From the NCBI GenBank assembly GCA_964434475.1, contig CAYSVS010000001.1, positions 22,820 through 86,819 on the forward strand: 64,000 nt of DNA. The letters are read 5' to 3'. This document shows, piece by piece, positions 4,385-56,203 of the stretch (position 1 is its first letter; the number at the start of each line of letters is the position of its first letter). The position numbers were made by a program, and so were the translations under genes. The DNA comes from an uncultured Methanosarcinales archaeon. GTDB taxonomy: Archaea > Nanobdellota > Nanobdellia > Woesearchaeales > CAYSVS01. The notes below the pieces were generated by a model, which did no database searches, was not told the DNA's origin, and saw only the letters and a program-made list of their open reading frames with translations.

Positions 4385-4408
4385 TTTTTTATTTTTATAT
4401 ATCAGAAA

Positions 4409-5400: not shown

Positions 5401-5433
5401 AGTTTATAAAGCCCTTTTTCTATTTTTATTCTT

Positions 5434-29134: not shown

Positions 29135-29287
29135 TAAATAAAAAATAAAAGGAAAAGTATTTAAATTAGTTTATTTTCTAATGTTAGAAAGTAATGTGGA
29201 TTCATTGCTATGACTAGGGGTGGGAGTAGCTTGAGGGAGCTATTAGCATCGTAGTGAATTCTTGAAATTAAAAGAGGGAGAGAATAT

Positions 29288-32200
29288 TTGAGGGGAAAGA
29301 GAGGATTTAGTAGAGTAAGATTATTGTTGTTAGTTTTTGTTATTTTAGCTATGTCTTCTTATGCTTTGCCTTCTTTTATATCTATCTGGGATGATACTGA
29401 TCTAGGTAAAGTTATGTATCCTTATAATATGACTTATTTCTATGCTAATTATACTAATTCAACTGGGGACGTAATAACGGGCATGACTCCAGTTTGTAAC
29501 ATAACCATTATAAATACAGAAGGTCCAGGTATAGCGGGTCCTATCCCTATGCAGTATAATGCTGTATCTTTTTTATATGAATACAATAACACTTTTGATG
29601 ATGAAGGTTTGATGTTTGGACCAGGCATACATGATTGGAACGTTAGTTGTGCTTATGATCTTTATGATTATAATTCTAGCTCAGATACTGTAAATATTTC
29701 AGGAGATATGGATGAGATTTTCATAGAAAAATACGCCTTAAATGGAACGGTGTATGAAGATGAGATTGTTACATTCATCCTGAATGTAACGAATTTTGGC
29801 ATGGAAAATTATACAGACTTGTTTTTGGTTGATGAGTTCAACATCAGTTATCTAAATTTTAGTGCATCTACAACTTACCCTGTAAATATTATTCCTGAAG
29901 TTAACTATACTTCTGGAGAAGTTGAATGGATGCTTAATTTAAGCGTAGGCCATTCTTTTGTTGCATTAGTGAATTTCACAGCACTTCAAACAGGCAACAC
30001 AACAAACTATGTTTATGTTAAAAACGATACAGAATATTTTGGAGGAGATTTTGAGGAGATTGAAATCTTGTGGGAAGAAGAGCTTTGTAATCTTGATTTT
30101 AGCAATGTTTCATGCATTTCAAGAGAACCTTGGTGTTCCTGGAATGAAGACTATTGGAATCCTTTTACCCAAGAAGATGGATATTGTATGCCTAATTGTT
30201 CTTTGTTGACAGTAGAGGATTGTCAAGATTATCCTTATGAATGCAATTGGAACGGAAGCAGTTGTAATGATCTAGATTGTTATAGTATAGGCATTGAATC
30301 AGAATGTGGCCAGTATGATCAATGTTATTGGGATTTTGAAGAAAGTGATTGCGATCCTAATTGCACCTACTTTAACTATGATAATCCTGAGTTTAATGAG
30401 TCAAGCGACAATATATTTGAGAATGCAAGTATTTGGTGTATGAAAGCTGATTGCGATTGGAATGGAAGCTATTGTATTGAAGATGAAGAAGAGATAAATA
30501 TTTCTGTAAATAAAATTTTGTTGGACTCCAACATCTATCCTGGAGATACTGTTCAGTTTATGATAAACATAACCAATGTTGGAGATAGTGGCTTGGTTAA
30601 TATCTGGGGTTATGATGACTATAATGATACTTTTATGAATTTTACAGGCATAAGCTGCGGATATATGGCTCATGGTTCAAGATGGGTGCAGATTAATTTT
30701 ACTCAATGTGTTGGTGGTGGTTTGCCACCAGGAGAATCTGTTGCTGCATATATTAACTTTACTGCATTAGAATCAGGCAGTACTTTTAACAATGTCAGCG
30801 TTAATGCAACAGATTTTGATATGAATAATATACTTGAATCTGACCAGATAGATTTCGGGATCTTGGGCGGAGAAGAAGGAAGCGAAGCACCTTGTAATAT
30901 TGAGAATGAAACACAGTGTTTTATGAGAAGCGAGTGTATCTGGGATGACATGATGCATAATCCTTTAACTGATAGCAATGGTTATTGTCAGACCAATTGT
31001 TCTTTGTTGACAGTAGAGGATTGTCAAGATTATCCTTATGAATGCAATTGGAACGGAAGCAGTTGTAATGATCTAGATTGTTATAGTATAGGCATTGAAT
31101 CAGAATGTGGCCAGTATGATCAATGTTATTGGGATTTTGAAGAAAGTGATTGCGATCCTAATTGCACCTACTTTAACTATGATAATCCTGAGTTTAATGA
31201 GTCAAGCGACAATATATTTGAGAATGCAAGTATTTGGTGTATGAAAGCTGATTGCGATTGGAATGGAAGCTATTGTATTGAAGATGAAGAAGAGATAAAT
31301 ATTTCTGTAAATAAAATTTTGTTGGACTCCAACATCTATCCTGGAGATACTGTTCAGTTTATGATAAACATAACCAATGTTGGAGATAGTGGCTTGGTTA
31401 ATATCTGGGGTTATGATGACTATAATGATACTTTTATGAATTTTACAGGCATAAGCTGCGGATATATGGCTCATGGTTCAAGATGGGTGCAGATTAATTT
31501 TACTCAATGTGTTGGTGGTGGTTTGCCACCAGGAGAATCTGTTGCTGCATATATTAACTTTACTGCATTAGAATCAGGCAGTACTTTTAACAATGTCAGC
31601 GTTAATGCAACAGATTTTGATATGAATAATATACTTGAATCTGACCAGATAGATTTCGCAATCTTGGGTGGAGAAGAAGATGAAGATAATGTAACTATAA
31701 ACAAGACAGTTATAACCCCGAGTGTTGAAGACGGAAGTATAGCATCATTTATGATAACAGTTAATAACAACGAACCATATAATATTACAAATTATGAAGT
31801 ATATGATTTCTTCAATACTAGTATGATCAATTATACTGCTGCAAGTTATACGCCCGAGGATATTAATTATACTATGGGTAGAGTTATCTGGGTAATCAAT
31901 AATCTTGAGAATTACAGCTCTTTTTCATTCAATGTGAATTTTTCAACATTTATAGAAGGAAATACTACAAATTATGTTGTCCTGAAGAACAGCACAGGAA
32001 ATCATGTTGCGGATGATAACGCAAGTTTAGAGATAACCTTATTTGAGGAAGAAGATGAAGGAATGTATGATTTTGGAGATGCGCCTGACTCTTGCAACCA
32101 TTTCGGAACAGATATGGAGACAGATCCTAGTATGTTTACCAGCGATATAATTGCAAATTATCCTACAGTACATAACATAACCTTAAAAGATAATTGCGGA

Positions 32201-35200
32201 AAAACTTATGGTCCTTGTCATGATAACTATTTTTTGACTTTAGGAAGTAATATAACCTTAGAACAAGAAGCTGATAAAGGAACTGATGAAGATGCTCCTG
32301 ATAATAATATTCAGCCATCAATAAACCAATCTGATTTTGATTCGATCGGAACAAGTTTTGGAATGGATGATGGGCTAGATGCAGCAGGTATTGATTCTAC
32401 AAGTTTAAACCAATTTAATTGGTCACATTGTGAGAATGTCACAATACCTGTAAATATTACTGTAATTGGCGGTCCTTATGCAAGCGATTGGAATGCGACA
32501 TTGAACATTTGGATTGATTATAGTAGGAATGGACAATGGGGCAGTCCCGGAGGGACAGAGGATTATGTCATGTGCGGTATGGATTCTATATCTGAATGGG
32601 TTGTGCAGAATGAAGTTGTAGCTCAGTTAAGTGGTGGCGGATTTGGTCCAGGTTCTTTTCTACACAATGTAACTTTTATGGCACTCTCTAATTTTTCAAA
32701 CTATACTTGGATGAGATTACAGGTGACTCCTACAGAAGTCGATATAATAGATTATGCTGATGGTTCAGGTCCTGCTGTGTGTTATGAAGATGGAGAAACA
32801 GAGGATTATTATGTTAAAATTATGCCTTTGGAAGAAGAGGAAGAAGAGTTTGAGGAGAATGTTACTATAGAAAAAACCGCTTTGTATTCTGAAGTAGAAA
32901 ATGGAAGTATAGCAACATTCATGATAAACGTAACCAATTATAATGATTTTAATATCACTGATTATGTAATATATGATTTCTTCAACACAAGCATGCTGAA
33001 TTATACTGCTGCAAGTTATACGCAAGAGGATGTCAATTATACTGAAGGAAGAGTTGTTTGGGTTATCAATAATCTTCCTGCTTATGAATCATTTGAGTTT
33101 AGTGTAAACTTTACAACATTGATGATAGGAAACACGACCAATGAAGTTATCTTGAAAAATAGTACAGGAGATTATGTTGATGAAGATGAAGCAAGTTTAG
33201 ATATTATTATGGCTGCAGAAATGCCTGTATTCAATTTTAATGGAACAGTGTATGATGATATGGGTAATACTCTTAGCGGAGCGAATGTCAGTGTAGATGT
33301 ATGGAATAATACAGAAGAACCTATCAGGATTTCAGTTGAATCCACTTTAACCGATGGTTCTGGAGAATTTAATATAGCTCTGCCTGAATATGATCTTGTT
33401 GATAATTATATTTACAAGACAAAAGTGTATTTCGATAATGGTACGCATATATTTGTAAGCAAAGCACCTATGTCTTTATTAAAATCACAATTGGTTGGTG
33501 TTTCTCCTGCACAATTCCATATGACAGAAGGCACCAAATTAAATATTAGTTTGATGGAGATTCCTGGCGAATCAAGATGTTTTATGGATACACTTAAGGA
33601 TGGATTAACAGGAGTCAGAGTAGGTGGGATAGAAGGTACAGTTGGAGATGAAAACGAGAACACTTCGATAAATTTCAGTATAATATATGTGCCTACTGGT
33701 AGAGATTATTCTTTAAGGCTTCAGCCTTGCGCAGCCGATCCTTTTTCAAGAGATATTTCTGCTTCTGAATTAAATCCTAATACTGTCACTAATTTACAAT
33801 ATAACTATTCCCAATCTTTTACCTTTGTTAGTGGCTATGTTAATGGAGATAATTTTGATACTTTCCATATAAACAATTTCGCGTTTGAAGCTGATGCTAT
33901 GATAAAGATACTTGGACCTAATCCAAGCAATAGTGCTTCTGAATCAACAGGAAATGGATTAAATACAAATGATACTTATGATGCATCAACTGGCTTCTTT
34001 AACATTAGCCTACCTGGAAAAGTTTCTCCTGGTGCAAATGTATTCTTGTTTTTTGTAGCTGAAAACAGTTCAGGAAGATACGCTGCTTTTAGGAATTATA
34101 CTATAAATTATAATCAGCCAACTTTTGATATAGGGATTATTGATTTGTATAAGATGCAAGGGTATGCTGCAGATAGGCAGATAAAATATAGTTATAGGGA
34201 AAGCAACGGAAACATTACACAAAAACAAACAAACATCACTGAAGTAAATATTTCATTAGTTGATGAAAGCGGATTACCTGTAACAGACACTTTGTTTATC
34301 GAAGCTTCATTTGAATATGATACTTCAGAATTAACTGATTTTTTTATACCTGTAGAGATTCCGGGATATGATTATCAGGGTGAAAGAATATTTTATAATG
34401 GCAAATTTACTGTTCCTGTTTTAGAAGGGGGAAATATTAAGATAAAAGTATATTCTCCTAAATATTCTATCAAGGAATATGATATTTCAAGCGAAGAGAT
34501 AGCTGCATTAAATCCCGGCGACTCTATAGAGTTAAACTTAACCAATTATACTTCAGGAGATATTGCTGGAAGCTTAAGCACAGATGATATATTTATAGAA
34601 TTTTTAGAGGATTCTCCTGAGTGCAGCAAGCCTGATTATGATGCAGATGCATGTGCCAGGATACCAAGACAAACATTGACAGATTTTAATTATATAGATA
34701 GTGCTTTGGGACTTAGCGAGGCTAATATTGTCGTAGGGAGGAATAGTACAGGCTTGTCTGTAATGTATGTTGAAGCTGATCTTTTTACTTCTGGTGCTTT
34801 AGAAGCTTTATTTGATTCTGATGCTGTTGCTTCAGGTTCAGGTGATTCTTTAGAAGAAGCATGGAGATTCGGAAGTATGGGTCCTGATATATATGAACAC
34901 ATCTTGATATCTATGCCTTATAATGACACTTTCAATGAAAGCGAGTTGGGTTTTAATCTAGATTATCTTTATGATGATAATTGGAATATTATCTGGAATG
35001 TTTCTGCTAATGGTACAAATGTTAACATTGATGATTACTTGGATTATTCTTCTGATTATTTTGAAGGGATAGAATGTACAGATGTTAACAAGAGTGCAAA
35101 GTGTTATATCAATACTAGCTTAAATATGGCTTGGATAAGAGTTCCTCATTTTTCGGGAGTTGGACCTGTATTTGGTATTTTGGATGAAGGCGAGGATATA

Positions 35201-38200: not shown

Positions 38201-41200
38201 CCTAACTTAACAGGAATACATGCAGAGCTTACATTCTATAATATCACTGGATTATATGGCATCAATACTCCGCAAGTTATCAAACAGGCGTTTGGTGGAG
38301 GAGCAGTACAACAAGTGTATGTTTCTGGTCAATTTAGTTTTGATCCTGGAACTGGAAATCTTATATTGCCGATAACTTCCTTTTCACAATATACTGTTCA
38401 GGAAGCACCAGAAGAATTGATTGAAAACGCAACAATAACAAAAACTTTGCTTAATGGTCCTTTAACTGTTGGAGATACAGCGGTGTTTATGATAAATGTA
38501 ACCAACACAGGCACAGTTAACTTTACTGAATTTGAGATAAGAGACTCTTGGAATTCTTCTCATATCAATTACACAGCTTCTGCAAGTCCGGACTATTGCG
38601 TATTTGATGAAGTTAATTATACTGACAGTGAAGCATTCTGGCTGCTTAACCTTAGTGTTGGAGATAGCGCATTGCTTTACGTAAACTTTACAACACTTGC
38701 AACTGGAAATACAACAAACGAGATTGACATAGAGAATTCAACAGGCGGTGATATGGCATATGACGATGAAGATATTGAGATTACTTCTGGACAGCAGCCT
38801 ATAAATGTAACTTTGATATATCCGACAAATGGTTTGATTTTGAATGAAAGTTCATTTAATTTAAATTATAGCGTTAACATAGAATCTAATTGCACTTTGT
38901 ATATTAATAATTCAGGAAATTGGACTCCTTACGAAAGTAATGTACACTTGGGAAATTGGAGTGTTGATATGAACTTAGTTGATGGAAATTATATGTGGAA
39001 TGTATACTGCTTTGATGTCAACAATATCTCAAACAATGCTTGGGCTGAAACAAGTAATTTTACTTTTGTTGTTAATGCATATTCTAGAGATTTTTATGAA
39101 ATTGATGATAACTACACTTTAGCTAATTGGATAACAACAGACAATGTTCCGCAACATCATACTTTTAATCCAGTAAATGACAGCGATTGGTTTAAGTTCA
39201 ATACGACTGCACATAATGAATATACAATTGAAACATATAATCTAAGCGGAGGAGCAGATACAATGTTGTTATTGTATGATTCTGATGGGCAGACATATCT
39301 GACTTATGATGACGATTCTGGACCAGGGTATGGTTCTATTTTAAGATTTAAGGAAGAGGAGAATAAGACATATTATGTTTTGGTTGATGATTATTGGTCA
39401 TCAGGAAACTCTTATAATAATGCAACCTATTCAGTTAAGGTGAATTCATCAGCCATATCTAATGTAGGTAGTTATGATAGTTATGAATATGATGATTATG
39501 CTTGGCAGGCGAATGTTTTAGTACCAAATGGCACAGCGCAAAGCCATAACTTTTATCCTGCTGGTGATGAAGATTGGGTTGAGATTAATATGAGTGCGGG
39601 AGCTAGTTATGTGATTGAGACTGGTAATTTAGCTAATGGTGCTGATACTTATATGTTCTTGTATGGTCCTAATGGAAACTTGTTTGCATATAATGATGAT
39701 GTTGATTCAGGTATCATAATAAGTTCAAAAATAGAATGGACTGCAAACGAATCAGGATTGCATTATCTTAAAGTAAGGGATTATGATACTGGAGCTTCAG
39801 GAGGAACTTATGATATATCTGCAACCTATGGACCTAGTATAAATAATATGTTGTGTCATAATGGGACTGGCTGGACATCATGCAGTAATATTTTATATGG
39901 GACTAACTTTTCAAGCGTAAAAGCTAATTGTACATATCCTGCTGGAATCAAGAATGTGACTTTTAGTCTATTAAATGTTGATGATAATAATTATTTCTTT
40001 ACAGAAGAGCAATACACATCAAACACAACAGACTTTTATGAGTATGACATGGGTGATATAGATGTTGATGATTCGGGAGAATGGAATATTATAGTGGAGT
40101 GTACTGCTTCTGATGGTACTTCAACAAATTATACTGAATCTTGGGGGATTGAATGGGGTAAATTATCTACTTATCTTATTGAACCAACAGATAGTATTAA
40201 TATGTTGAAATATAACCTTACAAATATTTCAACAGGTGTAACTTGTACTGGAGGAGAATGTCAAGACATAACTGCGACATTGGATCCTAAGCCAGTGTAT
40301 GTTGATCCTGTGGTTGAAAGTCTAGTTCAAGAATCAGAGCAATATTCTTTGTTTGTTGATCAAAATAAAAAACAAAGTAAAGTGGATAAAATAGAATCGG
40401 ATGCTGTAATTTCAAAACAAAAAAATACATACGCGCCAGAAGAAAAAAGCGTAGAAGAGATGCTTGACGAACAGGGAGAAGTTCCTGTGATAGTTGTATT
40501 GAAAGATGAGGATATTGAGACTGTTGAATCAAAAGGTCAATTATCTTCTTTAGATATTAAAGGACAGTCATGGGAGAATAAAAAAGAGATGATAAAACAG
40601 CAGCAGGATAAAGTGCTTTCAACATTGTCAACAGAGGATAAGAAAACTAAATTCTTGTTCTGGACCATTAAATCAGAAGAGAAAGAGTTTAATCTTAAGA
40701 GAAAGTATGGATTGACAAATGCATTCTCTGGTAAAGTAACTAAATCAGCTTATGAAAAACTAAAGAATAATCCTGATGTTAAATCAGTGCATTATGATAA
40801 GATTGAAAAAATATTGCTTCATGAGTCTGTTCCGCTGATTGAAGCAGACGAGGTTTGGAACTTGCAGTATAATGGAAACAACATAACTGGCAGTGGTGAA
40901 ACAGTTTGTGTGATAGATACTGGAGTTGATTATAATCATGCTGATCTAGGCGGATGCTTTGGAGCAGGATGTAAAGTATTGGGAGGATATGATTTTTATA
41001 ATGATGATGCTAATCCTATGGATGATCATAATGACATAGTAACTGGTCAAGGTCATGGAACTCATTGCGCTGGAATAGTTGCAAGCACCAATTCAGTATA
41101 TACTGGTGTAGCACCTGGTGCAAATATTATTGCTATGAAAGCATGCGATTCAGGTGGTTCTTGCTCGTCATCAGATATATTATCTGGAATTGAATGGTGT

Positions 41201-44200
41201 GTTGCAAATGCTACTAAATATAATATTTCTGTTATTAGCATGAGTTTAGGAGGAGGAAAGTATAATTCTTATTGCGACAGCGATCCAAGAACTAGTATAA
41301 TCAATACTGCAGTTGGTCAAGGAATAATGGTTGTGGCTGCAAGTGGAAATGATGGATATCATGATGGAATAAGTGCTCCTGCTTGTGTGCAGAATGCGAC
41401 TGCTGTAGGTTCAACAACAAAAGCTGATGCAATATCTTCATTTAGTAATGTTGGTATGCCTTTGGATATATATGCGCCTGGGTCAAGTATTACTTCAACA
41501 AAGTATCCTGGTGGCGGTTTTACAAGTAAATCAGGAACATCTATGGCAACACCGCATGTTGCTGGAGCTGCTGCATTGTTGCATCAATACTACAGGGAGA
41601 GTGAAGGAATTAATATTACTCCTCAAGAGATTGAAGATAAATTTAAGATTACTGGTGTAGATGTATACGATGCAACAAGCGGAATAACAAGGAAAAGGAT
41701 AGATGTGCTTGAAGCTGTCCAAGACAGCAAGGGAGATGTTTCTATGACTCCTGGAGCAACACCGTTCTATTCTTTGACGCAGAATCCTGTATATAGTGCA
41801 AATTTAAGTTGTTTGACTGAACTTAAAGCAGGTGAAAGCTGCAATCAATCATGGACTATAAATGCAACAGGCACAAGAGGACAAACTTATGTGTTCTTTA
41901 CAAGATACAAGCACGACAACGAGGTAAACATAACGCCTAAGTTTAATATAACTATTTTGAACAATGCACCTGTATTGGCAATTCCTGAAAAGGTAATTGC
42001 TGAAGATAGTTATTCTGAGTTTGATGCAGTTCAATATACTACAGATACTGATGATGAGAATTTTACATATTCTATACTGACTGAAAATGTCAGTGAAGTG
42101 GATTGTGGTATTAATAATGATAATATTACTTTAATGCCTGCAGCAAATTGGAGCGGACAAGCAAGCTGTACAGTTAAAGTAACTGATGAGTTTGGCGGAT
42201 ATTCAAACGATACGTTTTTGATCAATGTAACTCCTGTAAATGATGCTCCTTATATTGCAAATGCAATCGATGACATGAGCATGGATGAAGATTCAGTTAA
42301 TTCAAGTGTAGTTGATCTGACAAATGTATTTGATGATGTAGATAATGTAAGTTTAGTTTATAGCTTTGCAACCGATAATGGAAATGTTGGTGCAGATCAG
42401 AATGGCAATTATTTGAGGTTGACTGCTTCAGGCAATTATAGTGGTGTTGTTACAGTAACTGTAAATGCGAGCGATGGCGAGTATAGCGTTACGGATGAGT
42501 TTAATATTACTGTTGTTGCTGTTAATGATGCTCCTTATGTTGCGAATGCAATCTCTGATATGGCTTTGGCAGAAGATACTATTAATAATAGTGCTGCTAA
42601 CTTAACCTTAGTTTTTGGTGACGTCGATAATGCGACTTTGGTTTATAGCTTTGCAGATAATGAAACAGATGTTGTTGCAGATCAAAACAATGATCAATTG
42701 AGATTGACTGCTTCAAATAATTTTACTGGAGATGTTGAAGTTAATGTAACTGCATCAGACGGTGAGTATAGCGTAACAGACACTTTTGTTTTAACAGTTA
42801 CTCCTGTCAATGATGCTCCTTATATTGCGAATCCTATAGATGACATGAGTATGGATGAAGATTCAGTTAATTCAAGTGTTGTTGATTTGACAACTGTATT
42901 TGATGATGTTGATAATGTAAGTTTAGTATATAATTTTGCAACCGATAATGGAAATGTTGGTGCAGATCAAAATGGCAATTATTTGAGGTTGACTGCTTCA
43001 GGCAATTATAGTGGTGTTGTTTTAGTTAATGTTACTGCATCTGATGGCCAATATACCGTGATAGATAAATTTAATGTTACTATTGTTGCTGTCAATGATG
43101 CTCCTTATGTTGCAAGCAATGTTCCTGATGTAACTTTTGCAGAAGATACATATAACGATACTCTTGACTTAGATAATTATTTCAATGATATTGATGATAT
43201 AAATTTGATATATAATTATACGTCTTCTGATACTGATGTTTCAGTTGAGTTCAATAGTGGAATGATCAATATAACTGCAGCAGCAAATTGGAATGGTGTT
43301 GTTACTTTGAATTTCTCTGCTTATGATGGGGAATACTATGTATATGATGATATCAATGTTACAATAACTCCTGTAGATGATGTACCTCAAATAGATGTTG
43401 TGTATCCAAACGGAGGAAATACTTTGTTTGGTGCAGGAAACAACATACGTGCTGATGTTACTGATGTTGATGGAGATGTGCAGTATGTAACATTCTATAA
43501 CTCTAATAATTCTGGAGTAAACTGGTATATTATAGACAATGGCACAACAAGCAATAATGTAACTTATTCATATAGCTGGAACGTATCAAGCTTAGCAAAC
43601 ATCACAACATATAGAATAAATGCGACAGTATATGACGGAACAAGTTTAGTAAGCGATGCTTCTGATGCTGACTTTGAGGTTAATAATAGTATTTTTGAAA
43701 TAAACCCTATATCTAATCTGACTATAAGTTTGGATGAGAATAATTCAGTTGTATTGGATTGGAACCCTTCAAATTCAAGTATTCAAGAATATAGGATATT
43801 TGTTTCTACAGATCCGGAGAGCTTTGATTTTAATGATGTTTATGATACGACTGCTTCTTCCTCCACAATGTGGGTTGATACAAACGCAATAAACTATACA
43901 AAAAGGTATTATGTTGTAAGAGCTGCTTCAGGAAGTCTTGATGATAAGAATAATATGACTGTAGGTAAATATGAGAAAACTTTCAGCAGCGGATGGCAAA
44001 TGGTGTCATTCCCTCTTAATATGAGCAATTGGCAGCTGCCTAGATGGAACACTGAGGATACATTGGAGAATCCAGTCAATGTTGAGCCAGAAGATTCTAT
44101 AAAGTGGATAAACGACAGATATGGAAATAATGCTCAGAGGATAATAGAGAATGCAACCAAGAAATATTGGTCAGACGGAGGAGGACTAAGTAACCTTAAT

Positions 44201-44566
44201 CCTGTACAAGGTTACTGGATGCAGTTCAACCAAAGCGCTACGATGACCTTTATAGGTGAAGTGAATTCTGTAAACTACAGCAGGTCTTTCAACAGCGGAT
44301 GGGATATGATAGGAGTATTCAGTGTCAAGTCAGCTAGTTTGCCTAGATGGAACACAGGGGATACTGTTACAAACCCTGTTGTTGTAAATCCTTCTGATAG
44401 TCAGCAATGGATTAATGATAGATACGGCAACAACGCACAATGGATAATAGAGAATGCAACCAAGAAATACTGGTCAGATGGCGGAGGATTGTCAACAATA
44501 ACTCCGGGTAACGCTTATTGGATGCAGGCTAATCAAAGTTATAGTTTTTACTATTATCCTGGTTAA
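29288..44566 (+). CDS. Giant secreted, heavily N-glycosylatable multidomain surface protein (5092 aa)
   Basis: Single uninterrupted 15.3 kb ORF with an apparent TTG start 9 nt after an AGAGGGAG SD-like motif. Signal peptide (RGKRGFSRVRLLLLVFVILAMSSYA). N-x-S/T sequons are extremely dense. Domains recognised by eye: Cys-rich modules, DUF11-like beta-sandwich repeats, a parallel beta-helix, 2x PPC domains, an internal I9 propeptide plus S8 subtilase, 5x ~96-aa VNDAP repeats and two C-terminal ~100-aa repeats. Confidence 0.85.
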   Translation: MRGKRGFSRVRLLLLVFVILAMSSYALPSFISIWDDTDLGKVMYPYNMTYFYANYTNSTGDVITGMTPVCNITIINTEGPGIAGPIPMQYNAVSFLYEYNNTFDDEGLMFGPGIHDWNVSCAYDLYDYNSSSDTVNISGDMDEIFIEKYALNGTVYEDEIVTFILNVTNFGMENYTDLFLVDEFNISYLNFSASTTYPVNIIPEVNYTSGEVEWMLNLSVGHSFVALVNFTALQTGNTTNYVYVKNDTEYFGGDFEEIEILWEEELCNLDFSNVSCISREPWCSWNEDYWNPFTQEDGYCMPNCSLLTVEDCQDYPYECNWNGSSCNDLDCYSIGIESECGQYDQCYWDFEESDCDPNCTYFNYDNPEFNESSDNIFENASIWCMKADCDWNGSYCIEDEEEINISVNKILLDSNIYPGDTVQFMINITNVGDSGLVNIWGYDDYNDTFMNFTGISCGYMAHGSRWVQINFTQCVGGGLPPGESVAAYINFTALESGSTFNNVSVNATDFDMNNILESDQIDFGILGGEEGSEAPCNIENETQCFMRSECIWDDMMHNPLTDSNGYCQTNCSLLTVEDCQDYPYECNWNGSSCNDLDCYSIGIESECGQYDQCYWDFEESDCDPNCTYFNYDNPEFNESSDNIFENASIWCMKADCDWNGSYCIEDEEEINISVNKILLDSNIYPGDTVQFMINITNVGDSGLVNIWGYDDYNDTFMNFTGISCGYMAHGSRWVQINFTQCVGGGLPPGESVAAYINFTALESGSTFNNVSVNATDFDMNNILESDQIDFAILGGEEDEDNVTINKTVITPSVEDGSIASFMITVNNNEPYNITNYEVYDFFNTSMINYTAASYTPEDINYTMGRVIWVINNLENYSSFSFNVNFSTFIEGNTTNYVVLKNSTGNHVADDNASLEITLFEEEDEGMYDFGDAPDSCNHFGTDMETDPSMFTSDIIANYPTVHNITLKDNCGKTYGPCHDNYFLTLGSNITLEQEADKGTDEDAPDNNIQPSINQSDFDSIGTSFGMDDGLDAAGIDSTSLNQFNWSHCENVTIPVNITVIGGPYASDWNATLNIWIDYSRNGQWGSPGGTEDYVMCGMDSISEWVVQNEVVAQLSGGGFGPGSFLHNVTFMALSNFSNYTWMRLQVTPTEVDIIDYADGSGPAVCYEDGETEDYYVKIMPLEEEEEEFEENVTIEKTALYSEVENGSIATFMINVTNYNDFNITDYVIYDFFNTSMLNYTAASYTQEDVNYTEGRVVWVINNLPAYESFEFSVNFTTLMIGNTTNEVILKNSTGDYVDEDEASLDIIMAAEMPVFNFNGTVYDDMGNTLSGANVSVDVWNNTEEPIRISVESTLTDGSGEFNIALPEYDLVDNYIYKTKVYFDNGTHIFVSKAPMSLLKSQLVGVSPAQFHMTEGTKLNISLMEIPGESRCFMDTLKDGLTGVRVGGIEGTVGDENENTSINFSIIYVPTGRDYSLRLQPCAADPFSRDISASELNPNTVTNLQYNYSQSFTFVSGYVNGDNFDTFHINNFAFEADAMIKILGPNPSNSASESTGNGLNTNDTYDASTGFFNISLPGKVSPGANVFLFFVAENSSGRYAAFRNYTINYNQPTFDIGIIDLYKMQGYAADRQIKYSYRESNGNITQKQTNITEVNISLVDESGLPVTDTLFIEASFEYDTSELTDFFIPVEIPGYDYQGERIFYNGKFTVPVLEGGNIKIKVYSPKYSIKEYDISSEEIAALNPGDSIELNLTNYTSGDIAGSLSTDDIFIEFLEDSPECSKPDYDADACARIPRQTLTDFNYIDSALGLSEANIVVGRNSTGLSVMYVEADLFTSGALEALFDSDAVASGSGDSLEEAWRFGSMGPDIYEHILISMPYNDTFNESELGFNLDYLYDDNWNIIWNVSANGTNVNIDDYLDYSSDYFEGIECTDVNKSAKCYINTSLNMAWIRVPHFSGVGPVFGILDEGEDIENATITKTAVLSQVDNGSIAQFIINITNTGTANITNAELGDEYNISYMNFTGYSTLDLGISLPNVMGNRVEWDVNISVGESVSLIVNFTTYAVGNTTNEVEFEKNETYDFDSDEANLEILVGVPHFIENASLTKTALNSPVDVGSIAQFMINVTNTGNVNLTGYELTDRFNISYMNFTWASQPPNDVRFSEGEVEWVLNVSVGESEIIHVNFTTYKTGTTFNEVDFENSTGFGITESNVGIEIIEPASDVLLVNTTGYINQTGYFILNLTNPIQAAIDSANIGDLINISEGVYLANIRVDKKIEIHGVNKTGTIISAASSGTDIFYVQEDKVNISQMTLTRANTGSVAGIHLHNASRCVVENVFSFNNSYGVLITGTSDHHICNENIIKNNNLSLNIIRNIGIGYSNGYCDDNEIIDNHISFSIQDGIAVSNSANTIIRDNKIYNNTNSGGYAISLSSTTNTSIYDNEILNNYYGMRITNPYVGNQYHNYIYENILTDNRINFYILHKDNIIFNNTIVSFADWGSSNYGFWMDLDAANNTIYNNIINISGVTSLFSVVKPNNWNTTSSADTNIIGKSAFGGNFWANESGGFSVTCSDNDFDGYCDANYVLDTGNIDYFPLAAEMGQNPTVFIENATLTKTVLNSTVANGSIAQFMINVTNTGNVNLTGYELTDRFNISYMNFTWASQPPHDVRFSEGEVEWMFNLSVGSTKVIFVNFTTYKVGNTTNGVDLVNSSDDDIAYDDADLVITLPLVPSNITTVGLGSPCLNHNDYFEGAATSPFEGPVNPDLNKMPDYFSADGDVVYMLANFTYNATHGNCSNMTVTADFSLAGGESNIPADLFSFTNTSESYYCIFNASGTVNMSNDVSLDGMLIAPVNVSFTATDGINNVTGKGRNAVIVNTTYAPSCGVNQPDNCTIADLGGFTGDSTDFIDLAHNGNFFDFDNLTFDIPGHSKIVFTDNVSIPRPSAMQGLMDFAVDNMLINGTIGVNDSKYDGSYDDKPNLTGIHAELTFYNITGLYGINTPQVIKQAFGGGAVQQVYVSGQFSFDPGTGNLILPITSFSQYTVQEAPEELIENATITKTLLNGPLTVGDTAVFMINVTNTGTVNFTEFEIRDSWNSSHINYTASASPDYCVFDEVNYTDSEAFWLLNLSVGDSALLYVNFTTLATGNTTNEIDIENSTGGDMAYDDEDIEITSGQQPINVTLIYPTNGLILNESSFNLNYSVNIESNCTLYINNSGNWTPYESNVHLGNWSVDMNLVDGNYMWNVYCFDVNNISNNAWAETSNFTFVVNAYSRDFYEIDDNYTLANWITTDNVPQHHTFNPVNDSDWFKFNTTAHNEYTIETYNLSGGADTMLLLYDSDGQTYLTYDDDSGPGYGSILRFKEEENKTYYVLVDDYWSSGNSYNNATYSVKVNSSAISNVGSYDSYEYDDYAWQANVLVPNGTAQSHNFYPAGDEDWVEINMSAGASYVIETGNLANGADTYMFLYGPNGNLFAYNDDVDSGIIISSKIEWTANESGLHYLKVRDYDTGASGGTYDISATYGPSINNMLCHNGTGWTSCSNILYGTNFSSVKANCTYPAGIKNVTFSLLNVDDNNYFFTEEQYTSNTTDFYEYDMGDIDVDDSGEWNIIVECTASDGTSTNYTESWGIEWGKLSTYLIEPTDSINMLKYNLTNISTGVTCTGGECQDITATLDPKPVYVDPVVESLVQESEQYSLFVDQNKKQSKVDKIESDAVISKQKNTYAPEEKSVEEMLDEQGEVPVIVVLKDEDIETVESKGQLSSLDIKGQSWENKKEMIKQQQDKVLSTLSTEDKKTKFLFWTIKSEEKEFNLKRKYGLTNAFSGKVTKSAYEKLKNNPDVKSVHYDKIEKILLHESVPLIEADEVWNLQYNGNNITGSGETVCVIDTGVDYNHADLGGCFGAGCKVLGGYDFYNDDANPMDDHNDIVTGQGHGTHCAGIVASTNSVYTGVAPGANIIAMKACDSGGSCSSSDILSGIEWCVANATKYNISVISMSLGGGKYNSYCDSDPRTSIINTAVGQGIMVVAASGNDGYHDGISAPACVQNATAVGSTTKADAISSFSNVGMPLDIYAPGSSITSTKYPGGGFTSKSGTSMATPHVAGAAALLHQYYRESEGINITPQEIEDKFKITGVDVYDATSGITRKRIDVLEAVQDSKGDVSMTPGATPFYSLTQNPVYSANLSCLTELKAGESCNQSWTINATGTRGQTYVFFTRYKHDNEVNITPKFNITILNNAPVLAIPEKVIAEDSYSEFDAVQYTTDTDDENFTYSILTENVSEVDCGINNDNITLMPAANWSGQASCTVKVTDEFGGYSNDTFLINVTPVNDAPYIANAIDDMSMDEDSVNSSVVDLTNVFDDVDNVSLVYSFATDNGNVGADQNGNYLRLTASGNYSGVVTVTVNASDGEYSVTDEFNITVVAVNDAPYVANAISDMALAEDTINNSAANLTLVFGDVDNATLVYSFADNETDVVADQNNDQLRLTASNNFTGDVEVNVTASDGEYSVTDTFVLTVTPVNDAPYIANPIDDMSMDEDSVNSSVVDLTTVFDDVDNVSLVYNFATDNGNVGADQNGNYLRLTASGNYSGVVLVNVTASDGQYTVIDKFNVTIVAVNDAPYVASNVPDVTFAEDTYNDTLDLDNYFNDIDDINLIYNYTSSDTDVSVEFNSGMINITAAANWNGVVTLNFSAYDGEYYVYDDINVTITPVDDVPQIDVVYPNGGNTLFGAGNNIRADVTDVDGDVQYVTFYNSNNSGVNWYIIDNGTTSNNVTYSYSWNVSSLANITTYRINATVYDGTSLVSDASDADFEVNNSIFEINPISNLTISLDENNSVVLDWNPSNSSIQEYRIFVSTDPESFDFNDVYDTTASSSTMWVDTNAINYTKRYYVVRAASGSLDDKNNMTVGKYEKTFSSGWQMVSFPLNMSNWQLPRWNTEDTLENPVNVEPEDSIKWINDRYGNNAQRIIENATKKYWSDGGGLSNLNPVQGYWMQFNQSATMTFIGEVNSVNYSRSFNSGWDMIGVFSVKSASLPRWNTGDTVTNPVVVNPSDSQQWINDRYGNNAQWIIENATKKYWSDGGGLSTITPGNAYWMQANQSYSFYYYPG
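30186..31657 (+). repeat. Exact internal tandem duplication (~670 identical nt at 801-bp offset) within the giant gene
   Basis: Protein segment NCSLLTVEDCQDYPYECNWNG...ESDQIDF occurs twice with 100% identity. Antisense ORFs 30401..30673 and 31202..31474 in the track are identical 90-mers. The N-terminal ~40 aa of each unit are diverged. Confidence 0.7.
40290..41700 (+). other. Internal I9-type propeptide plus S8 subtilisin-like serine protease domain embedded in the giant protein
   Basis: Catalytic triad in subtilase order: VCVIDTGVDYNHADLGG (Asp codon 40916..40918), GQGHGTHCAGIVAS (His codon 41054..41056), SGTSMATPHVAGAAALL (Ser codon 41540..41542). It is preceded by an I9-like segment (PVIVVLKD...KSVHYDKIEKILLHESVPLIEADEVW). 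Confidence 0.7.
42226..43400 (+). repeat. Five tandem ~96-aa (288-nt) VNDAP-motif repeats (cadherin-like / tandem-95-type) in the giant protein
   Basis: Units begin VTPVNDAPYIANAIDDM, VVAVNDAPYVANAISDM, VTPVNDAPYIANPIDDM, VVAVNDAPYVASNVPDV, ITPVDDVPQIDV at ~288-nt spacing. Confidence 0.6.
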
Positions 44567-44571
44567 GGAAG

Positions 44572-45219
44572 ATGAGAATAAGATCTATTTTTTGTTTGAT
44601 ATTAATTTTTTTTATTTCTGTACTGCCTTGTTTAGCTGAACCTTTGGGTGTTTTTGGATATGTTAAGGATATAGAGGGCAATCCTGTTGGCTGTATAGAT
44701 ATGGCTTTCACTGATCTGTCTGAAGATTATACAGGTCATCCTATATCTGGAAAAACTAATTGCGGCGGAATGTATGTTGGAAAATACGCAGTATTTTTTT
44801 ATGAGATAGATGGAGCCAAGGGAAATGATGTGATAGAGATAAAGTTAGATTATGCAGGCAACATCTTCATAGAAAAATTTAATCTTGACGGAAATGAACA
44901 CAATATTACTCTGGATCTTGTTGGTGTTGTTAAAGAATCTGATGGTGAGATTGTTGATTTGATTCCTGTTCCTGCACTTTTTTTGGATGATAAAGATATT
45001 TTACAGGATAAAGATGAAAAAGAATCTATGAAAAAAAATATAAAAGATGCTGTTATTTCAGTTACTGAAAATAAGACAGATAATAATTTAGAAATATCTA
45101 ATAATTATGAAAATATAAATAAAGAACAAGATGTAGGTTATTGTTTAAATATAAAATATTTTATTTTGTTTGGATTTATTTTTTTGATATTATTTTTTTC
45201 TTATAGAAAATTATCTTAG
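44572..45219 (+). CDS. Small secreted protein with C-terminal TM anchor (carboxypeptidase-regulatory-like beta-sandwich motif)
   Basis: Signal peptide MRIRSIFCLILIFFISVLPCLA, GYVKDIEGNPVGCIDMAF (CarboxypepD_reg-like), and a C-terminal hydrophobic YFILFGFIFLILFFSYRKLS. AAGGAAG SD before the ATG. Confidence 0.5.
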   Translation: MRIRSIFCLILIFFISVLPCLAEPLGVFGYVKDIEGNPVGCIDMAFTDLSEDYTGHPISGKTNCGGMYVGKYAVFFYEIDGAKGNDVIEIKLDYAGNIFIEKFNLDGNEHNITLDLVGVVKESDGEIVDLIPVPALFLDDKDILQDKDEKESMKKNIKDAVISVTENKTDNNLEISNNYENINKEQDVGYCLNIKYFILFGFIFLILFFSYRKLS

Positions 45220-45343
45220 TTACTTATATCGGGCTGATATATTATCGATAAAAAGACATACAACAAATAACAACATTTATAAATGGTACGCGATTTAATC
45301 TTTATTTAATAATGTTAAAACATTATAAAGGGAGGGTTTGAAT

Positions 45344-55742: not shown

Positions 55743-56203
55743 TTCCAGACATACACCCCTATGTTGATCAGATCCTTATCTAATATGCCTATCCTTTCAA
55801 TCTTAACCAGCTCTGTGGTTTCATCATAATCCTCTATTCCATTTATCTTTTCAGTTTCATTATCTTTTGATAGATATATGTAGAAATCAAATTTCATGTT
55901 AGTGATGTTTTTTAATCTGTTGTATTTAATATTTTTTAAGTACTTTAATTTTGTTTTGTTAATCTCATTATCCAGTATTCCTATCTGTTCTATGTTTTCT
56001 GTATTCCAATGTTCAGGATAACCTGTATCCATCAACATTTCAGATAGTCTTATTGCTTCGTTCTCAATTATGTTTACTGATTTCAGGCCTGAATCATAAT
56101 TATAGAAAAATATTGCTGCAACTAATGTAAAGAGCATCAATCCTATCATGAAATCGATGTAAAAAACCTGTGCTTTCTTATTGATTAATGATGACTTTTC
56201 CAT
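55739..56203 (-). CDS. Pilin-like protein (154 aa)
   Basis: N-terminus NKKAQVFYIDFMIGLMLFTLVAAIFF, a class III signal peptide-like sequence. Confidence 0.5.
   Translation of the reverse strand: MEKSSLINKKAQVFYIDFMIGLMLFTLVAAIFFYNYDSGLKSVNIIENEAIRLSEMLMDTGYPEHWNTENIEQIGILDNEINKTKLKYLKNIKYNRLKNITNMKFDFYIYLSKDNETEKINGIEDYDETTELVKIERIGILDKDLINIGVYVWK

What the first reader, a model, noticed from the sequence alone, without database searches (positions are those of the whole stretch)
29288..44566. 5092-aa sequon-saturated giant surface protein with a composite domain architecture
One uninterrupted 15.3-kb ORF encodes a signal peptide followed by a large set of recognisable domains. These are Cys-rich modules, many DUF11-like beta-sandwich repeats (IENATLTKTVLNS...FMINVTNTGNVNLTGYELTDRFNISYMNFT), a parallel beta-helix (about 36000..36950), two PPC domains (about 39160..39800), an internal I9+S8 subtilase, five 96-aa VNDAP repeats and two C-terminal ~100-aa repeats. 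Almost every few residues contain an N-x-S/T sequon, and an AglB gene lies in the same window. Giant surface proteins of small-genome DPANN archaea are candidates for host-cell attachment. This domain combination, with an embedded protease, is not one I can match to a described family.
Basis: partly seen in the sequence, partly recalled or inferred. Interest (0 to 1): 0.8.

Follow-up and report, generated by a model that had tools for sequence, protein, structure and literature searches.

The report
Giant archaeal surface adhesin with nested protease
This is an intact 15.3-kb gene of a small-genome (DPANN-type) archaeon that encodes a secreted, probably heavily sugar-coated 5,092-residue mosaic of adhesin-like modules carrying an active-looking subtilisin-type protease; the kind is known, but the protease is unusually inserted inside another domain.

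Summary
Window 29288..44566 (+) is one uninterrupted 5,092-codon ORF with a Shine-Dalgarno-like site, a signal peptide and 258 N-x-S/T sequons against 90±8 expected. That is about one per 20 residues, not "every few".

Pfam and NCBIfam confirm nine CLIPPER/DUF11 domains, a NosD-type beta-helix, two PPC domains, I9+S8 with an intact Asp/His/Ser triad, and five tandem-95 repeats. They also show duplicated Cys-rich modules and two orphan C-terminal repeats.

Relatives are uncharacterised Woesearchaeota, Nanoarchaeota and Altiarchaeales proteins built from the same modules. A 3,242-aa Woesearchaeota protein is colinear with much of it.

New here: the pro-protease sits in a loop of an Ig-like beta-sandwich. 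The two sandwich halves flank I9-S8 in 14 of the 149 closest relatives and are absent from 132. A payload-free copy folds as one domain (pLDDT 91). Other Woesearchaeota-type giants carry LamG-type payloads in the same loop.

Unlike its relatives, the protein has no membrane anchor. It is not a SPEARE protein.

Best reading: a glycosylated fibrillar adhesin-protease for contact with another cell or substrate. Function is inferred only. Contiguity rests on one assembly, and a 664-nt exact tandem duplication leaves copy number uncertain.

The parts
29273..29287 (+). Shine-Dalgarno-like AGGGAG about 7 nt upstream of the TTG start. An A/T-rich, possibly promoter-containing intergenic region lies further upstream (29135-29270).
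   Evidence: Read directly from the sequence.
29288..44566 (+). The whole giant ORF: 5,092 aa, pI 4.05, 258 N-x-S/T sequons.
29288..29365 (+). Signal peptide, aa 1-26 (RGKRGFSRVR / LLLLVFVILAM / SSYA|LP). It is the only hydrophobic segment of the protein.
   Evidence: The next-best 19-aa Kyte-Doolittle window scores 1.37.
29369..29704 (+). N-terminal ~110-aa module. It recurs internally in other archaeal giants and subtilases.
   Evidence: P0006, P0002, P0048 and others, 30-38% identity.
29705..30073 (+). CLIPPER/DUF11 domain 1.
30074..31675 (+). Two copies of [Cys-rich module with 16 Cys + CLIPPER domain] (aa 263-530 and 531-796). This is an 801-nt tandem duplication; 30194-30857 is identical to 30995-31658.
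31676..32047 (+). CLIPPER domain 4.
32060..32827 (+). GEVED-like module (aa 925-1180). It scores below Pfam's threshold but is 70% identical to the same block of the Woesearchaeota protein MBD3249873.1.
32846..33223 (+). CLIPPER domain 5.
33230..35167 (+). A 646-aa module with no family assignment. It is homologous to stand-alone, C-terminally membrane-anchored glycoproteins of other Woesearchaeota and to blocks of P0003 and P0038.
   Evidence: No solved relative was found.
35186..35932 (+). CLIPPER domains 6 and 7.
36005..37057 (+). Right-handed parallel beta-helix (NosD/Beta_helix, CASH-type).
37085..37447 (+). CLIPPER domain 8.
37448..38407 (+). A 320-aa module with no family assignment. 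Together with what follows it is colinear with the N-terminus of P0059.
38414..38797 (+). CLIPPER domain 9.
39020..39757 (+). Two PPC (pre-peptidase C-terminal type) domains.
39773..40117 (+). Cys-containing Ig-like domain ('upA'). It precedes every payload cassette in related giants.
40118..40282 (+). N-terminal half of the split Ig-like beta-sandwich ('upB', ...C.GGEC..ATLDP).
40283..40489 (+). Sequon-free K/E-rich linker, predicted with low confidence (disordered or helical).
40490..40804 (+). Inhibitor_I9 propeptide. It has no sequons and is K/R-rich.
40889..41692 (+). Peptidase_S8 catalytic domain. Asp3877, His3923, Ser4085 and an SGN oxyanion motif are present.
41693..41953 (+). C-terminal half of the split Ig-like beta-sandwich ('down', KG..PFYS..C..W.INATG).
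41954..43378 (+). Five tandem-95 (Cadherin_5/Big_9) repeats, period 285 nt.
43394..43969 (+). About 190 aa of Ig/fn3-like sequence. Only a weak fn3 match was found.
43970..44563 (+). Two ~100-aa Trp/Tyr-rich C-terminal repeats with no detectable homolog. There is no transmembrane segment and no sorting signal.
44572..45219 (+). A 215-aa gene 6 nt downstream of the giant's stop. It has a signal peptide, a ~100-aa beta domain and a C-terminal transmembrane helix. It is a possible membrane partner; this is speculative.

Best explanation
The ORF is a real, intact gene of a low-GC DPANN-type (Woesearchaeota-like) archaeon. It encodes a Sec-exported, heavily N-glycosylated mosaic protein that combines a fibrillar-adhesin-like stalk with a protease.

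Shown by sequence:
- A cleavable-looking signal peptide and no other transmembrane segment.
- Nine CLIPPER (DUF11) Ig-like domains. All keep a Lys...Asp...Asn triad at the spacing of the isopeptide bond in the solved CLIPPER domain.
- Putative binding modules between them: a duplicated Cys-rich unit, a GEVED-like block, a 646-aa envelope-glycoprotein-like module, a NosD-type beta-helix, two PPC domains, five tandem-95 cadherin-like repeats and two orphan C-terminal repeats.
- A canonical pro-subtilase (I9 + S8 with an intact catalytic triad).

Shown by comparison and modelling: the pro-subtilase is topologically nested in a loop of an Ig-like beta-sandwich. Related Woesearchaeota-type giants use the same loop to display LamG-type and other payloads.

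Inferred:
- After export, AglB glycosylates the many sequons. The linker, propeptide and catalytic domain are almost sequon-free.
- The CLIPPER domains lock themselves with isopeptide bonds.
- The propeptide folds the S8 domain and is autocleaved. This cuts the chain at about residue 3,840.
- The complemented beta-sandwich then keeps the protease-plus-cadherin fragment attached to the stalk.
- The assembly binds another surface (host cell envelope, glycan or particle) and proteolyses proteins there, for contact or nutrient acquisition.
- Retention on the producing cell must be non-covalent (C-terminal repeats, the envelope-protein-like module, or the adjacent small membrane protein), or else the protein is released.
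For: - ORF integrity, start site and signal peptide.
- Sequon enrichment is 2.9-fold with z about 20. It is confined to exported proteins of the window. An AglB + GT2 + GT4 cluster is present.
- Domain assignments above curated thresholds.
- CLIPPER copies share invariant K13, D47 and N105, at offsets +34 and +92. The crystal structure described in PMC12617251 has K715, D748 and N806, at +33 and +91.
- The S8 triad is intact. The closest solved sequences are thermitase, subtilisin and Tk-SP. The AF2 model of aa 3608-4232 matches unautoprocessed pro-subtilisin E (3whi, target TM-score 0.81) and ProN-Tk-SP.
- Nested topology. The flanks align with 19 cassettes in six other giants. A payload-free copy models as one beta-sandwich (pLDDT 91.4, pTM 0.84). 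It matches Ig/MG-like domains over its full length. Among the 149 closest S8 relatives, both halves occur in 14 and neither in 132; the two with only the C-terminal half are N-terminally truncated fragments. In the giant's own model the N-terminal half reaches pLDDT about 90.
- Colinear relatives support the domain junctions. One relative was assembled independently by ENA and JGI.
- Linker + I9 carry 0 sequons in 174 aa, against 5-9 per 100 residues elsewhere.
Against: - There is no expression, localisation, glycan or activity data.
- No membrane anchor or sorting signal exists, although relatives (P0002, P0038, the L003 protein and the neighbouring 1,754-aa protein) have C-terminal transmembrane anchors. 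Surface retention is therefore unexplained.
- Contiguity rests on a single assembly. The cluster has one member on one contig, and no second copy was found.
- Isopeptide bonds, autoprocessing and fragment retention are inferred, not shown.
- Several modules have no known function: aa 1315-1960, 2721-3040, 4703-5092 and the Cys-rich units.
- DPANN placement rests on the labels of homologues, not on a marker phylogeny.
Confidence: 0.6

Rival explanations
1. It is a released or loosely bound nutritional protease, an archaeal analogue of bacterial cell-envelope proteinases. The non-catalytic modules would bind polymeric substrates, particles or glycans rather than a host cell. The protein would supply peptides to an auxotrophic small-genome organism.
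For: - No membrane anchor.
- The nearest I9-S8 relatives are mostly 1.1-1.4-kaa secreted, sequon-rich subtilases with the I9-S8 unit near the N-terminus, most often directly after the signal peptide.
- PPC domains and a CASH-type beta-helix are common in secreted hydrolases.
Against: - About 4,400 of the 5,092 residues are non-catalytic and adhesin-like (CLIPPER, tandem-95, GEVED-like).
- Relatives with the same modules are membrane-anchored.
- A 15-kb gene is a large investment for a small genome if the product simply diffuses away.
Confidence: 0.25
2. It is a structural envelope or sheath component. The giant glycoprotein would integrate into the organism's own S-layer-like envelope through the aa 1315-1960 module, mainly for protection or matrix formation. 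The protease would process envelope proteins.
For: - The 646-aa module is homologous to stand-alone proteins with signal peptide, Ser-rich linker and C-terminal transmembrane anchor, an S-layer-glycoprotein-like layout.
- Sequon load is heavy.
Against: - The stand-alone homologues are themselves uncharacterised.
- No such gene was found elsewhere in this window.
- S-layer proteins are usually far smaller and lack enzymatic or adhesin mosaics.
Confidence: 0.1
3. It is an assembly artefact. The 15.3-kb ORF would be a chimera or mis-joined repeat collapse or expansion from a short-read metagenome, and the true gene or genes would be shorter or differently arranged.
For: - A 664-nt perfectly identical tandem repeat lies inside the ORF.
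- Nine CLIPPER copies share up to 84% DNA identity.
- There is only one assembly of this sequence.
Against: - The frame is open across all 15,279 nt in a 33% GC genome, where random stops are frequent.
- The repeat unit is in frame (801 = 3 x 267).
- Homologues are colinear across most junctions: P0003 592-1481 with giant 1191-2090, P0059 24-1383 with 2717-4248, and P0060 and P0038 with 3397-4230.
- At worst the copy number of one unit is wrong.
Confidence: 0.05

Closest known systems
Fibrillar adhesins with CLIPPER (DUF11) stalks, e.g. Acinetobacter silvestris B9T28_05395 (PMC12617251; PDB 9IFR)
   Same: - Signal peptide.
- Repeated CLIPPER Ig-like domains with the Lys/Asp/Asn triad.
- A GEVED-like module and cadherin-like tandem repeats.
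- Predicted cell-surface location. That paper reports CLIPPER in archaeal surface proteins too.
   Different: - The CLIPPER domains are interspersed one or two at a time with other modules rather than forming one tandem stalk.
- There is no anchoring domain.
- An embedded pro-subtilase is present.
- Sequon load is extreme.
- The protein is about 2.4 times longer.
Uncharacterised DPANN giant or large S8 proteins: Woesearchaeota RLE38902.1 (P0038, 3,242 aa), MBD3249873.1 (P0002, at least 3,999 aa), 'archaeon' MEA3343572.1 (P0059) and MFH0876210.1 (P0060)
   Same: - They use the same module library: CLIPPER, the 646-aa module, PPC, the split Ig sandwich with nested I9-S8, tandem-95 and the GEVED block.
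- Identity is 27-70% per block.
- P0038 is colinear over several blocks.
   Different: - Module order and number differ. In P0002 the protease is near the N-terminus.
- P0002 and P0038 end in a transmembrane anchor with a charged tail; the giant does not.
- The Cys-rich unit and the C-terminal repeats have no counterpart.
- None of these proteins has been studied.
SPEARE and other giant surface proteins of Nanohaloarchaeota (PMC6642349, PMC10266531)
   Same: - DPANN lineage.
- More than 5,000 aa, acidic (pI about 4), with a Sec signal and a huge ectodomain of Ig-like adhesion domains.
- A proposed role in host interaction.
- A serine-protease region was claimed for the SPEARE protein, although PMC10266531 disputes this.
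   Different: - The giant has no C-terminal transmembrane segment, no cytoplasmic VirB4/TraG-like ATPase and no adjacent VirB4 gene.
- No LamG domain was detected.
- It has a bona fide I9+S8 with an intact triad.
- The organism is not a halophile.
- No sequence similarity to these proteins was found in the searches.
Bacterial cell-envelope proteinases and multidomain subtilases (lactocepin PrtP, C5a peptidase), and archaeal Tk-SP (PDB 3afg)
   Same: - An I9-type propeptide plus an S8 catalytic domain, followed by beta-sandwich domains.
- A surface-associated protease concept.
- Tk-SP is among the best sequence and structural matches.
   Different: - In those enzymes the prodomain is N-terminal and extra domains are appended or inserted into the protease (PA domain).
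- Here the whole pro-protease is inserted into another domain, 3,700 residues from the N-terminus.
- There is no PA domain and no wall anchor.

Membership tests
Subtilase (MEROPS S8 / Pfam PF00082) with I9 propeptide | HMM match above the curated threshold for both S8 and I9 | tested here: met
   S8 scores 168.3 bits against a cutoff of 21.8. I9 scores 24.7-28.7 bits against 21.2.
Subtilase (MEROPS S8 / Pfam PF00082) with I9 propeptide | Catalytic Asp-His-Ser in that order, plus an oxyanion Asn | tested here: met
   D3877 (VIDTG), H3923 (HGTHCAG), S4085 (GTSMATP) and an ASGNDG motif are present. They align with thermitase.
Subtilase (MEROPS S8 / Pfam PF00082) with I9 propeptide | Propeptide docked on the catalytic domain as in pro-subtilisins; autoprocessing | tested here: inconclusive
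   The AF2 model matches unautoprocessed pro-subtilisin E (3whi, target TM-score 0.81) and pro-Tk-subtilisin. Model confidence is only moderate (pLDDT 72.8). Cleavage itself cannot be tested in silico.
CLIPPER / DUF11 (PF01345) isopeptide domain | HMM match above threshold, repeated | tested here: met
   125.3 bits against 24.6 for the N-terminal half, and 37.3 bits for the C-terminal half. Nine copies were mapped.
CLIPPER / DUF11 (PF01345) isopeptide domain | Lys (first strand), catalytic Asp and Asn (late strand) able to form the intramolecular isopeptide bond | tested here: met
   K13, D47 and N105 are invariant in the 8 aligned copies; the ninth is a near-duplicate of one of them. Offsets are +34 and +92, against +33 and +91 for K715, D748 and N806 in PMC12617251. 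This is sequence-level evidence only. No direct alignment to 9IFR was obtained.
CLIPPER / DUF11 (PF01345) isopeptide domain | Isopeptide bond actually formed | not testable with these tools
   This needs mass spectrometry (-17 Da) or a structure.
Fibrillar adhesin (stalk + adhesive domain + anchor) | Stalk of repeated Ig-like domains | tested here: met
   Nine CLIPPER domains plus five tandem-95 repeats.
Fibrillar adhesin (stalk + adhesive domain + anchor) | Recognisable adhesive or binding domain | tested here: inconclusive
   The GEVED-like block is below threshold. The beta-helix and PPC domains are present but not diagnostic of adhesion.
Fibrillar adhesin (stalk + adhesive domain + anchor) | Cell-surface anchor (transmembrane segment, sortase or archaeosortase signal, OmpA-like domain) | tested here: not met
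   There is no hydrophobic segment besides the signal peptide. The C-terminus ends ...SYSFYYYPG. No anchor family was found in Pfam or NCBIfam.
SPEARE / nanohaloarchaeal giant surface protein | Transmembrane segment near the C-terminus with a cytoplasmic VirB4/TraG-like (originally 'restriction') ATPase domain | tested here: not met
   No transmembrane segment and no ATPase family hit.
SPEARE / nanohaloarchaeal giant surface protein | Laminin-G domain(s) in the ectodomain | tested here: not met
   No LamG match at E<=0.5. LamG occurs in related Woesearchaeota-type giants but not here.
SPEARE / nanohaloarchaeal giant surface protein | Adjacent VirB4/TraG-family ATPase gene | tested here: not met
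   The downstream genes are a 215-aa transmembrane protein and a 1,754-aa Ig-repeat protein. A HerA/DUF87 ATPase lies 12.6 kb upstream and is not adjacent.
Tandem-95 repeat protein (NCBIfam NF012211) | HMM above the curated cutoff, ~95-aa period | tested here: met
   101 bits against 90. The period is 285 nt, or 95 aa.
Cell-envelope proteinase (lactocepin / C5a-peptidase type) | PA domain inserted in the S8 domain, and a wall or membrane anchor | tested here: not met
   No PA domain and no anchor were detected.
N-glycosylated archaeal surface protein (AglB substrate) | Export signal, sequons and an AglB gene in the genome | tested here: met
   Actual glycosylation cannot be tested here.

The most novel reading that the evidence does not exclude
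The pro-subtilase nested in the loop of an Ig-like beta-sandwich may be a functional device, not just a fusion.

Autocleavage at the I9/S8 junction would split the 5,092-aa chain into a stalk of about 3,840 aa and a protease-cadherin fragment of about 1,250 aa. The complemented sandwich would keep the two clasped together. The sequon-free linker and propeptide would then be degraded.

The same loop acts as a swappable payload socket in Woesearchaeota-type giant proteins. It carries LamG/DUF2341 lectin-like domains, unknown domains, or the protease. This would be a modular display system by which DPANN archaea diversify what their surface fibres bind or cut.
Probability: 0.3. Interest if true: 0.6.

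Novelty: new variant of a known kind. Interest (0 to 1): 0.45.

Why it matters
DPANN archaea depend on contact with other cells, yet outside the Nanohaloarchaeota almost nothing is known about the molecules that make that contact.

This gene gives a concrete, testable candidate. It is an isopeptide-stabilised, glycan-coated fibre that carries an apparently active protease.

It also exposes a recurrent design in Woesearchaeota-type giant proteins. An Ig-like domain has a loop that hosts interchangeable payloads: a protease here, and lectin-like domains elsewhere. If confirmed, this would explain how these organisms diversify surface specificity.

The design would also be an unusual example of an enzyme inserted into a scaffold domain, the reverse of the usual PA-domain insertion into subtilases.

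Proteins above 5,000 aa are rare in archaea (PMC11573180).

Tried and rejected
- SPEARE membership was rejected. There is no transmembrane segment, ATPase, LamG domain or neighbouring VirB4 gene (PMC6642349, PMC10266531).
- Halophilic origin was rejected. The giant is acidic (pI 4.05), but the cytoplasmic proteins are basic.
- The search for homologous proteins returned nothing for aa 1315-1960 or for the C-terminal repeats. It did not even return the identical database protein, so these negatives say little.
- Metagenome scans gave nothing for the C-terminal repeat alignment. With the whole protein they found only the already known module homologue. The genome-collection scan did not find the source genome. 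No independent copy of the ORF exists in the collections searched.
- Profile searches of the CLIPPER alignment, the 646-aa module and the C-terminal repeats against PDB sequences found nothing significant.
It was redone with exact substrings.
- I first read the 'down' domain as simply following S8. BLAST suggested that relatives with an N-terminal protease also have it. Inspection showed they carry a different Ig domain there. HMMs of the two halves then showed near-perfect co-occurrence.
- No conserved gene neighbourhood was found around the relatives P0002 or P0038.
- Rfam and tRNA scans found nothing inside the ORF.
- No paralogous modules occur elsewhere in the window.
Full report
**1. The observation**

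Window 29288..44566 (+) is a single ORF of 5,092 codons plus a stop, with no internal stop. The window has 30-36% GC, so random stops are frequent and an open frame of this length is not chance.

The TTG at 29288 is the first possible start after the upstream stop. It follows an AGGGAG Shine-Dalgarno-like motif by about 7 nt. It gives a textbook signal peptide: MRGKRGFSRVR / LLLLVFVILAM / SSYA|LP. A hydropathy scan finds no other hydrophobic segment. The next-best 19-residue window scores 1.37, against 2.22 for the signal peptide.

The protein is very acidic (pI 4.05). The cytoplasmic proteins of the window are basic, so this is a surface-protein trait and not halophily.

**2. Sequons**

There are 258 N-x-S/T sequons. 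Five hundred shuffles give 90.0±8.3, with a maximum of 114. That is one sequon per 20 residues, a 2.9-fold excess. It is strong, but it is not "every few residues".

The neighbouring 1,754-aa exported protein shows the same bias (80 against 40 expected). Cytoplasmic proteins have 0-1 per 100 residues.

Sequons are unevenly distributed. Ig-like modules have 6-9 per 100 residues and the S8 domain has 1.5. The 174-aa linker plus I9 propeptide has none.

AglB (STT3) is present at 1226..4384, followed by GT2 and GT4 glycosyltransferases. This cluster is 25 kb away and is housekeeping. It shows capacity for glycosylation, not a specific link to the giant.

**3. Domain anatomy**

Pfam and NCBIfam scans of the whole protein and of ten overlapping 600-aa pieces were combined with a self-comparison. 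They give the following order, in aa:

- Signal peptide, 1-26.
- A recurrent ~110-aa module, 28-139.
- CLIPPER1, 140-262.
- [Cys-rich module + CLIPPER] twice, 263-796.
- CLIPPER4, 797-920.
- GEVED-like block, 925-1180. It scores below threshold but is 70% identical to the same block of a Woesearchaeota protein.
- CLIPPER5, 1187-1312.
- An unassigned 646-aa module, 1315-1960.
- CLIPPER6 and CLIPPER7, 1967-2215.
- NosD/Beta_helix, about 2240-2590 (64 bits).
- CLIPPER8, 2600-2720.
- An unassigned module, 2721-3040.
- CLIPPER9, 3043-3170.
- A small Ig-like module, 3171-3244.
- Two PPC domains, 3245-3490.
- A Cys-containing Ig domain, 3496-3610.
- Half of a beta-sandwich, 3611-3665.
- A K/E-rich linker, 3666-3734.
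- I9, 3735-3839.
- S8, 3868-4135.
- The other half of the sandwich, 4136-4222.
- Five tandem-95 repeats, 4223-4697 (NF012211, 101 bits against a cutoff of 90; period 95 aa).
- About 190 aa of Ig/fn3-like sequence.
- Two orphan ~100-aa repeats, 4895-5092.

The repeat period is 95 aa rather than 96. GEVED and CarboxypepD_reg are sub-threshold.

The two Cys-rich+CLIPPER units are an 801-nt in-frame tandem duplication, and 664 nt of it are perfectly identical. This is a recent duplication. In a short-read assembly its copy number cannot be trusted.

**4. The CLIPPER domains**

DUF11 was recently renamed CLIPPER. It was shown by crystallography to carry a Lys715-Asn806 isopeptide bond catalysed by Asp748. 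The bond confers heat and protease resistance, and the domain typically forms the stalks of fibrillar adhesins in bacteria and archaea (PMC12617251).

An alignment of the giant's copies has invariant K13, D47 and N105. The offsets are +34 and +92, against +33 and +91 in the crystal structure. The triad is thus conserved in every copy.

This is sequence-level evidence. No direct alignment to 9IFR could be obtained, and bond formation cannot be tested here.

**5. The protease**

The S8 domain has D3877, H3923, S4085 and an SGN oxyanion motif. It aligns best with thermitase, subtilisins and the archaeal Tk-SP.

An exhaustive HMMER search with aa 3716-4145 found 7,428 proteins at E<1e-30. The best 150 are 41-58% identical. 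Most are 1.1-1.4-kaa secreted, sequon-rich proteins with I9-S8 near the N-terminus, most often directly after the signal peptide. About ten have it deep inside long proteins of up to 6,948 aa. Named examples are Altiarchaeales, Woesearchaeota and 'archaeon' MAG proteins.

The AF2 model of aa 3608-4232 has pLDDT 72.8 and pTM 0.65. Its best structural matches are unautoprocessed pro-subtilisin E (target TM-score 0.81), ProN-Tk-SP and pro-Tk-subtilisin. The I9 and S8 parts therefore adopt the canonical zymogen arrangement.

The junction reads ...KSVHYDKIEKILLHE/SVPLIEADEVW. It resembles the subtilisin propeptide/mature boundary; this comparison rests on my own knowledge of subtilisin E, and it is an inference.

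**6. The nested topology (new)**

The segments flanking linker-I9-S8 are ...G.L...L..P....V....F.F...V.C.GGEC....ATLDP upstream and KG..P...G..PFY[ST]...NP......CL.....G..C...W.VNATG.... downstream. They align with 19 cassettes in six other giants of 4,700-5,700 aa. One of these is labelled Woesearchaeota and the others are unnamed. In those proteins the flanks bracket unrelated inserts of 213-372 aa. Some inserts are Laminin_G_3+DUF2341 or GH114_assoc-like; others are unassigned.

P0006 also holds a copy with no insert. AF2 with a 15-row alignment models it as one compact beta-sandwich (pLDDT 91.4, pTM 0.84). The insertion point lies in the loop between strands at residues 41-47 and 61-63. 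Foldseek matches Ig/MG-like sandwiches over the full ~130 residues. The hits include complement C3 MG domains, archaeal fusexin and CLIPPER 9IFR.

HMMs of the two halves were run on the 149 closest S8 relatives. Both halves occur in 14 proteins, always flanking I9-S8. Neither occurs in 132. Two have only the C-terminal half, and both are N-terminally truncated fragments. One has only the N-terminal half, with a sub-threshold C-terminal half.

In the giant's own model the N-terminal half reaches pLDDT about 90. I could not inspect coordinates, so packing of the halves in the giant is inferred from homology.

The consequence is also inferred. Propeptide autocleavage would cut the polypeptide, but the complemented sandwich could hold the two fragments together.

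**7. Relatives and mosaicism**

The identical protein is in NCBI from a single 87-kb contig, unnamed.

The best partial homologue is MBD3249873.1 (Woesearchaeota, at least 3,999 aa). It has the same modules in another order. I9-S8 lies at 184-593, and a CLIPPER-GEVED-CLIPPER block is 56% identical. It ends in a transmembrane segment plus a charged tail.

RLE38902.1 (Woesearchaeota, 3,242 aa) is colinear with the giant in this order: CLIPPERs, the 646-aa module, CLIPPER, PPC-I9-S8-sandwich (38% identity over 900 aa), tandem-95, then a C-terminal transmembrane anchor. It was assembled independently by ENA and JGI.

P0059 is colinear with aa 2717-4248. P0003 is colinear with aa 1191-2090. These colinearities argue against a chimeric assembly at most junctions.

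The 646-aa module also occurs as a stand-alone protein in other Woesearchaeota MAGs. That protein has a signal peptide, a Ser-rich linker and a C-terminal transmembrane anchor, an S-layer-glycoprotein-like layout.

The Cys-rich unit and the C-terminal repeats have no homologue in anything retrieved.

**8. What it is not**

It is not a SPEARE-type protein. It has no transmembrane segment, no VirB4/TraG-like ATPase, no LamG domain and no adjacent ATPase gene (PMC6642349, PMC10266531).

It is not a lactocepin-type cell-envelope proteinase, since it has no PA insert and no anchor.

It fits the fibrillar-adhesin concept except for the missing anchor.

**9. Mechanism and confidence**

Shown by sequence: the export signal, sequon enrichment, module identities, intact catalytic and isopeptide motifs, and the nested topology by homology.

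Inferred: glycosylation, isopeptide locking, autoprocessing with fragment retention, binding to a foreign surface with local proteolysis, and non-covalent retention on the producer.

Candidates for retention are the C-terminal repeats, the envelope-protein-like module, or the 215-aa membrane protein encoded 6 nt downstream.

The main rival is a released nutritional protease. An envelope-structural role and an assembly artefact are less likely.

**10. Novelty and score**

Still, proteins above 5,000 aa are rare in archaea (PMC11573180), and this family is uncharacterised. I found no description of a protease nested in an Ig-like payload socket in the literature searched.

I rate it a new variant of a known kind, with interest 0.45.

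Noticed in passing
window 1226..6923 (+): AglB (STT3) is fused at its C-terminus to a parvulin-type PPIase (Rotamase, aa 918-1020). GT2 and GT4 glycosyltransferase genes follow. An oligosaccharyltransferase fused to a folding catalyst is unusual.
   Followed up: partly
window 52213..56203 (-) and 57661..61005 (+): A type-IV-pilus-like locus. Three genes have prepilin-like N-termini (e.g. MKKAQFFTADG...), including an 869-aa VWA-domain protein. Opposite them lie a PilB/T2SSE ATPase and two T2SSF (PilC/FlaJ-like) genes. This is another candidate cell-contact apparatus close to the giant gene.
   Followed up: partly
window 45338..50602 (+): A second large exported protein of 1,754 aa with Big_13/Big_7 domains. 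It is also sequon-rich (80 against 40 expected). It has a 'TTPGFSYFAIV' pre-PGF-like motif, an acidic linker, a C-terminal transmembrane segment and a basic tail. This is the anchor type that the giant lacks.
   Followed up: partly
window 44572..45219 (+): A 215-aa gene starts 6 nt after the giant's stop. It has a signal peptide, a ~100-aa beta domain and a C-terminal transmembrane helix, and no family match. It may be a co-transcribed membrane partner.
   Followed up: partly
window 63120..63878 (+): A clear prolipoprotein diacylglyceryl transferase (Lgt, 191 bits) in an archaeal context. It is a bacterial-type lipoprotein enzyme.
   Followed up: no
window 30194..30857 and 30995..31658: A 664-nt perfectly identical direct repeat lies inside the ORF, as part of an 801-nt in-frame tandem duplication. 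It is a recent duplication, and its copy number is not trustworthy in a short-read assembly.
   Followed up: yes
L003 2081..4741; L004 1158..3965; L002 5050..7077: The giant's 646-aa unassigned module exists as a stand-alone protein of 886-935 aa in other Woesearchaeota or Nanoarchaeota MAGs. That protein is sequon-rich and has a signal peptide, a Ser-rich linker and a C-terminal transmembrane anchor. It is a possible major envelope glycoprotein of these organisms.
   Followed up: partly
proteins P0006, P0009, P0010, P0011, P0014, P0015 (retrieved relatives): These 4.7-5.7-kaa proteins are from JGI, ENA or NCBI; P0010 is labelled Woesearchaeota and the others are unnamed. Each contains 3-4 cassettes of the same split Ig-like sandwich with a different inserted payload (LamG_3+DUF2341, GH114_assoc-like, or unknown). 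P0006 also has one payload-free copy.
   Followed up: yes
window 40283..40804 (aa 3666-3839): The linker and I9 propeptide contain no sequon in 174 residues and are K/R-rich (29 K+R). The rest of the protein has 5-9 sequons per 100 residues and very few K/R. This fits a segment meant to be cleaved and degraded.
   Followed up: partly
window 14631..16634 (+): A HerA/DUF87-type ATPase with weak TrwB/T4SS coupling-protein similarity lies 12.6 kb upstream of the giant. It is not adjacent, so it was not counted as a SPEARE-like partner.
   Followed up: no
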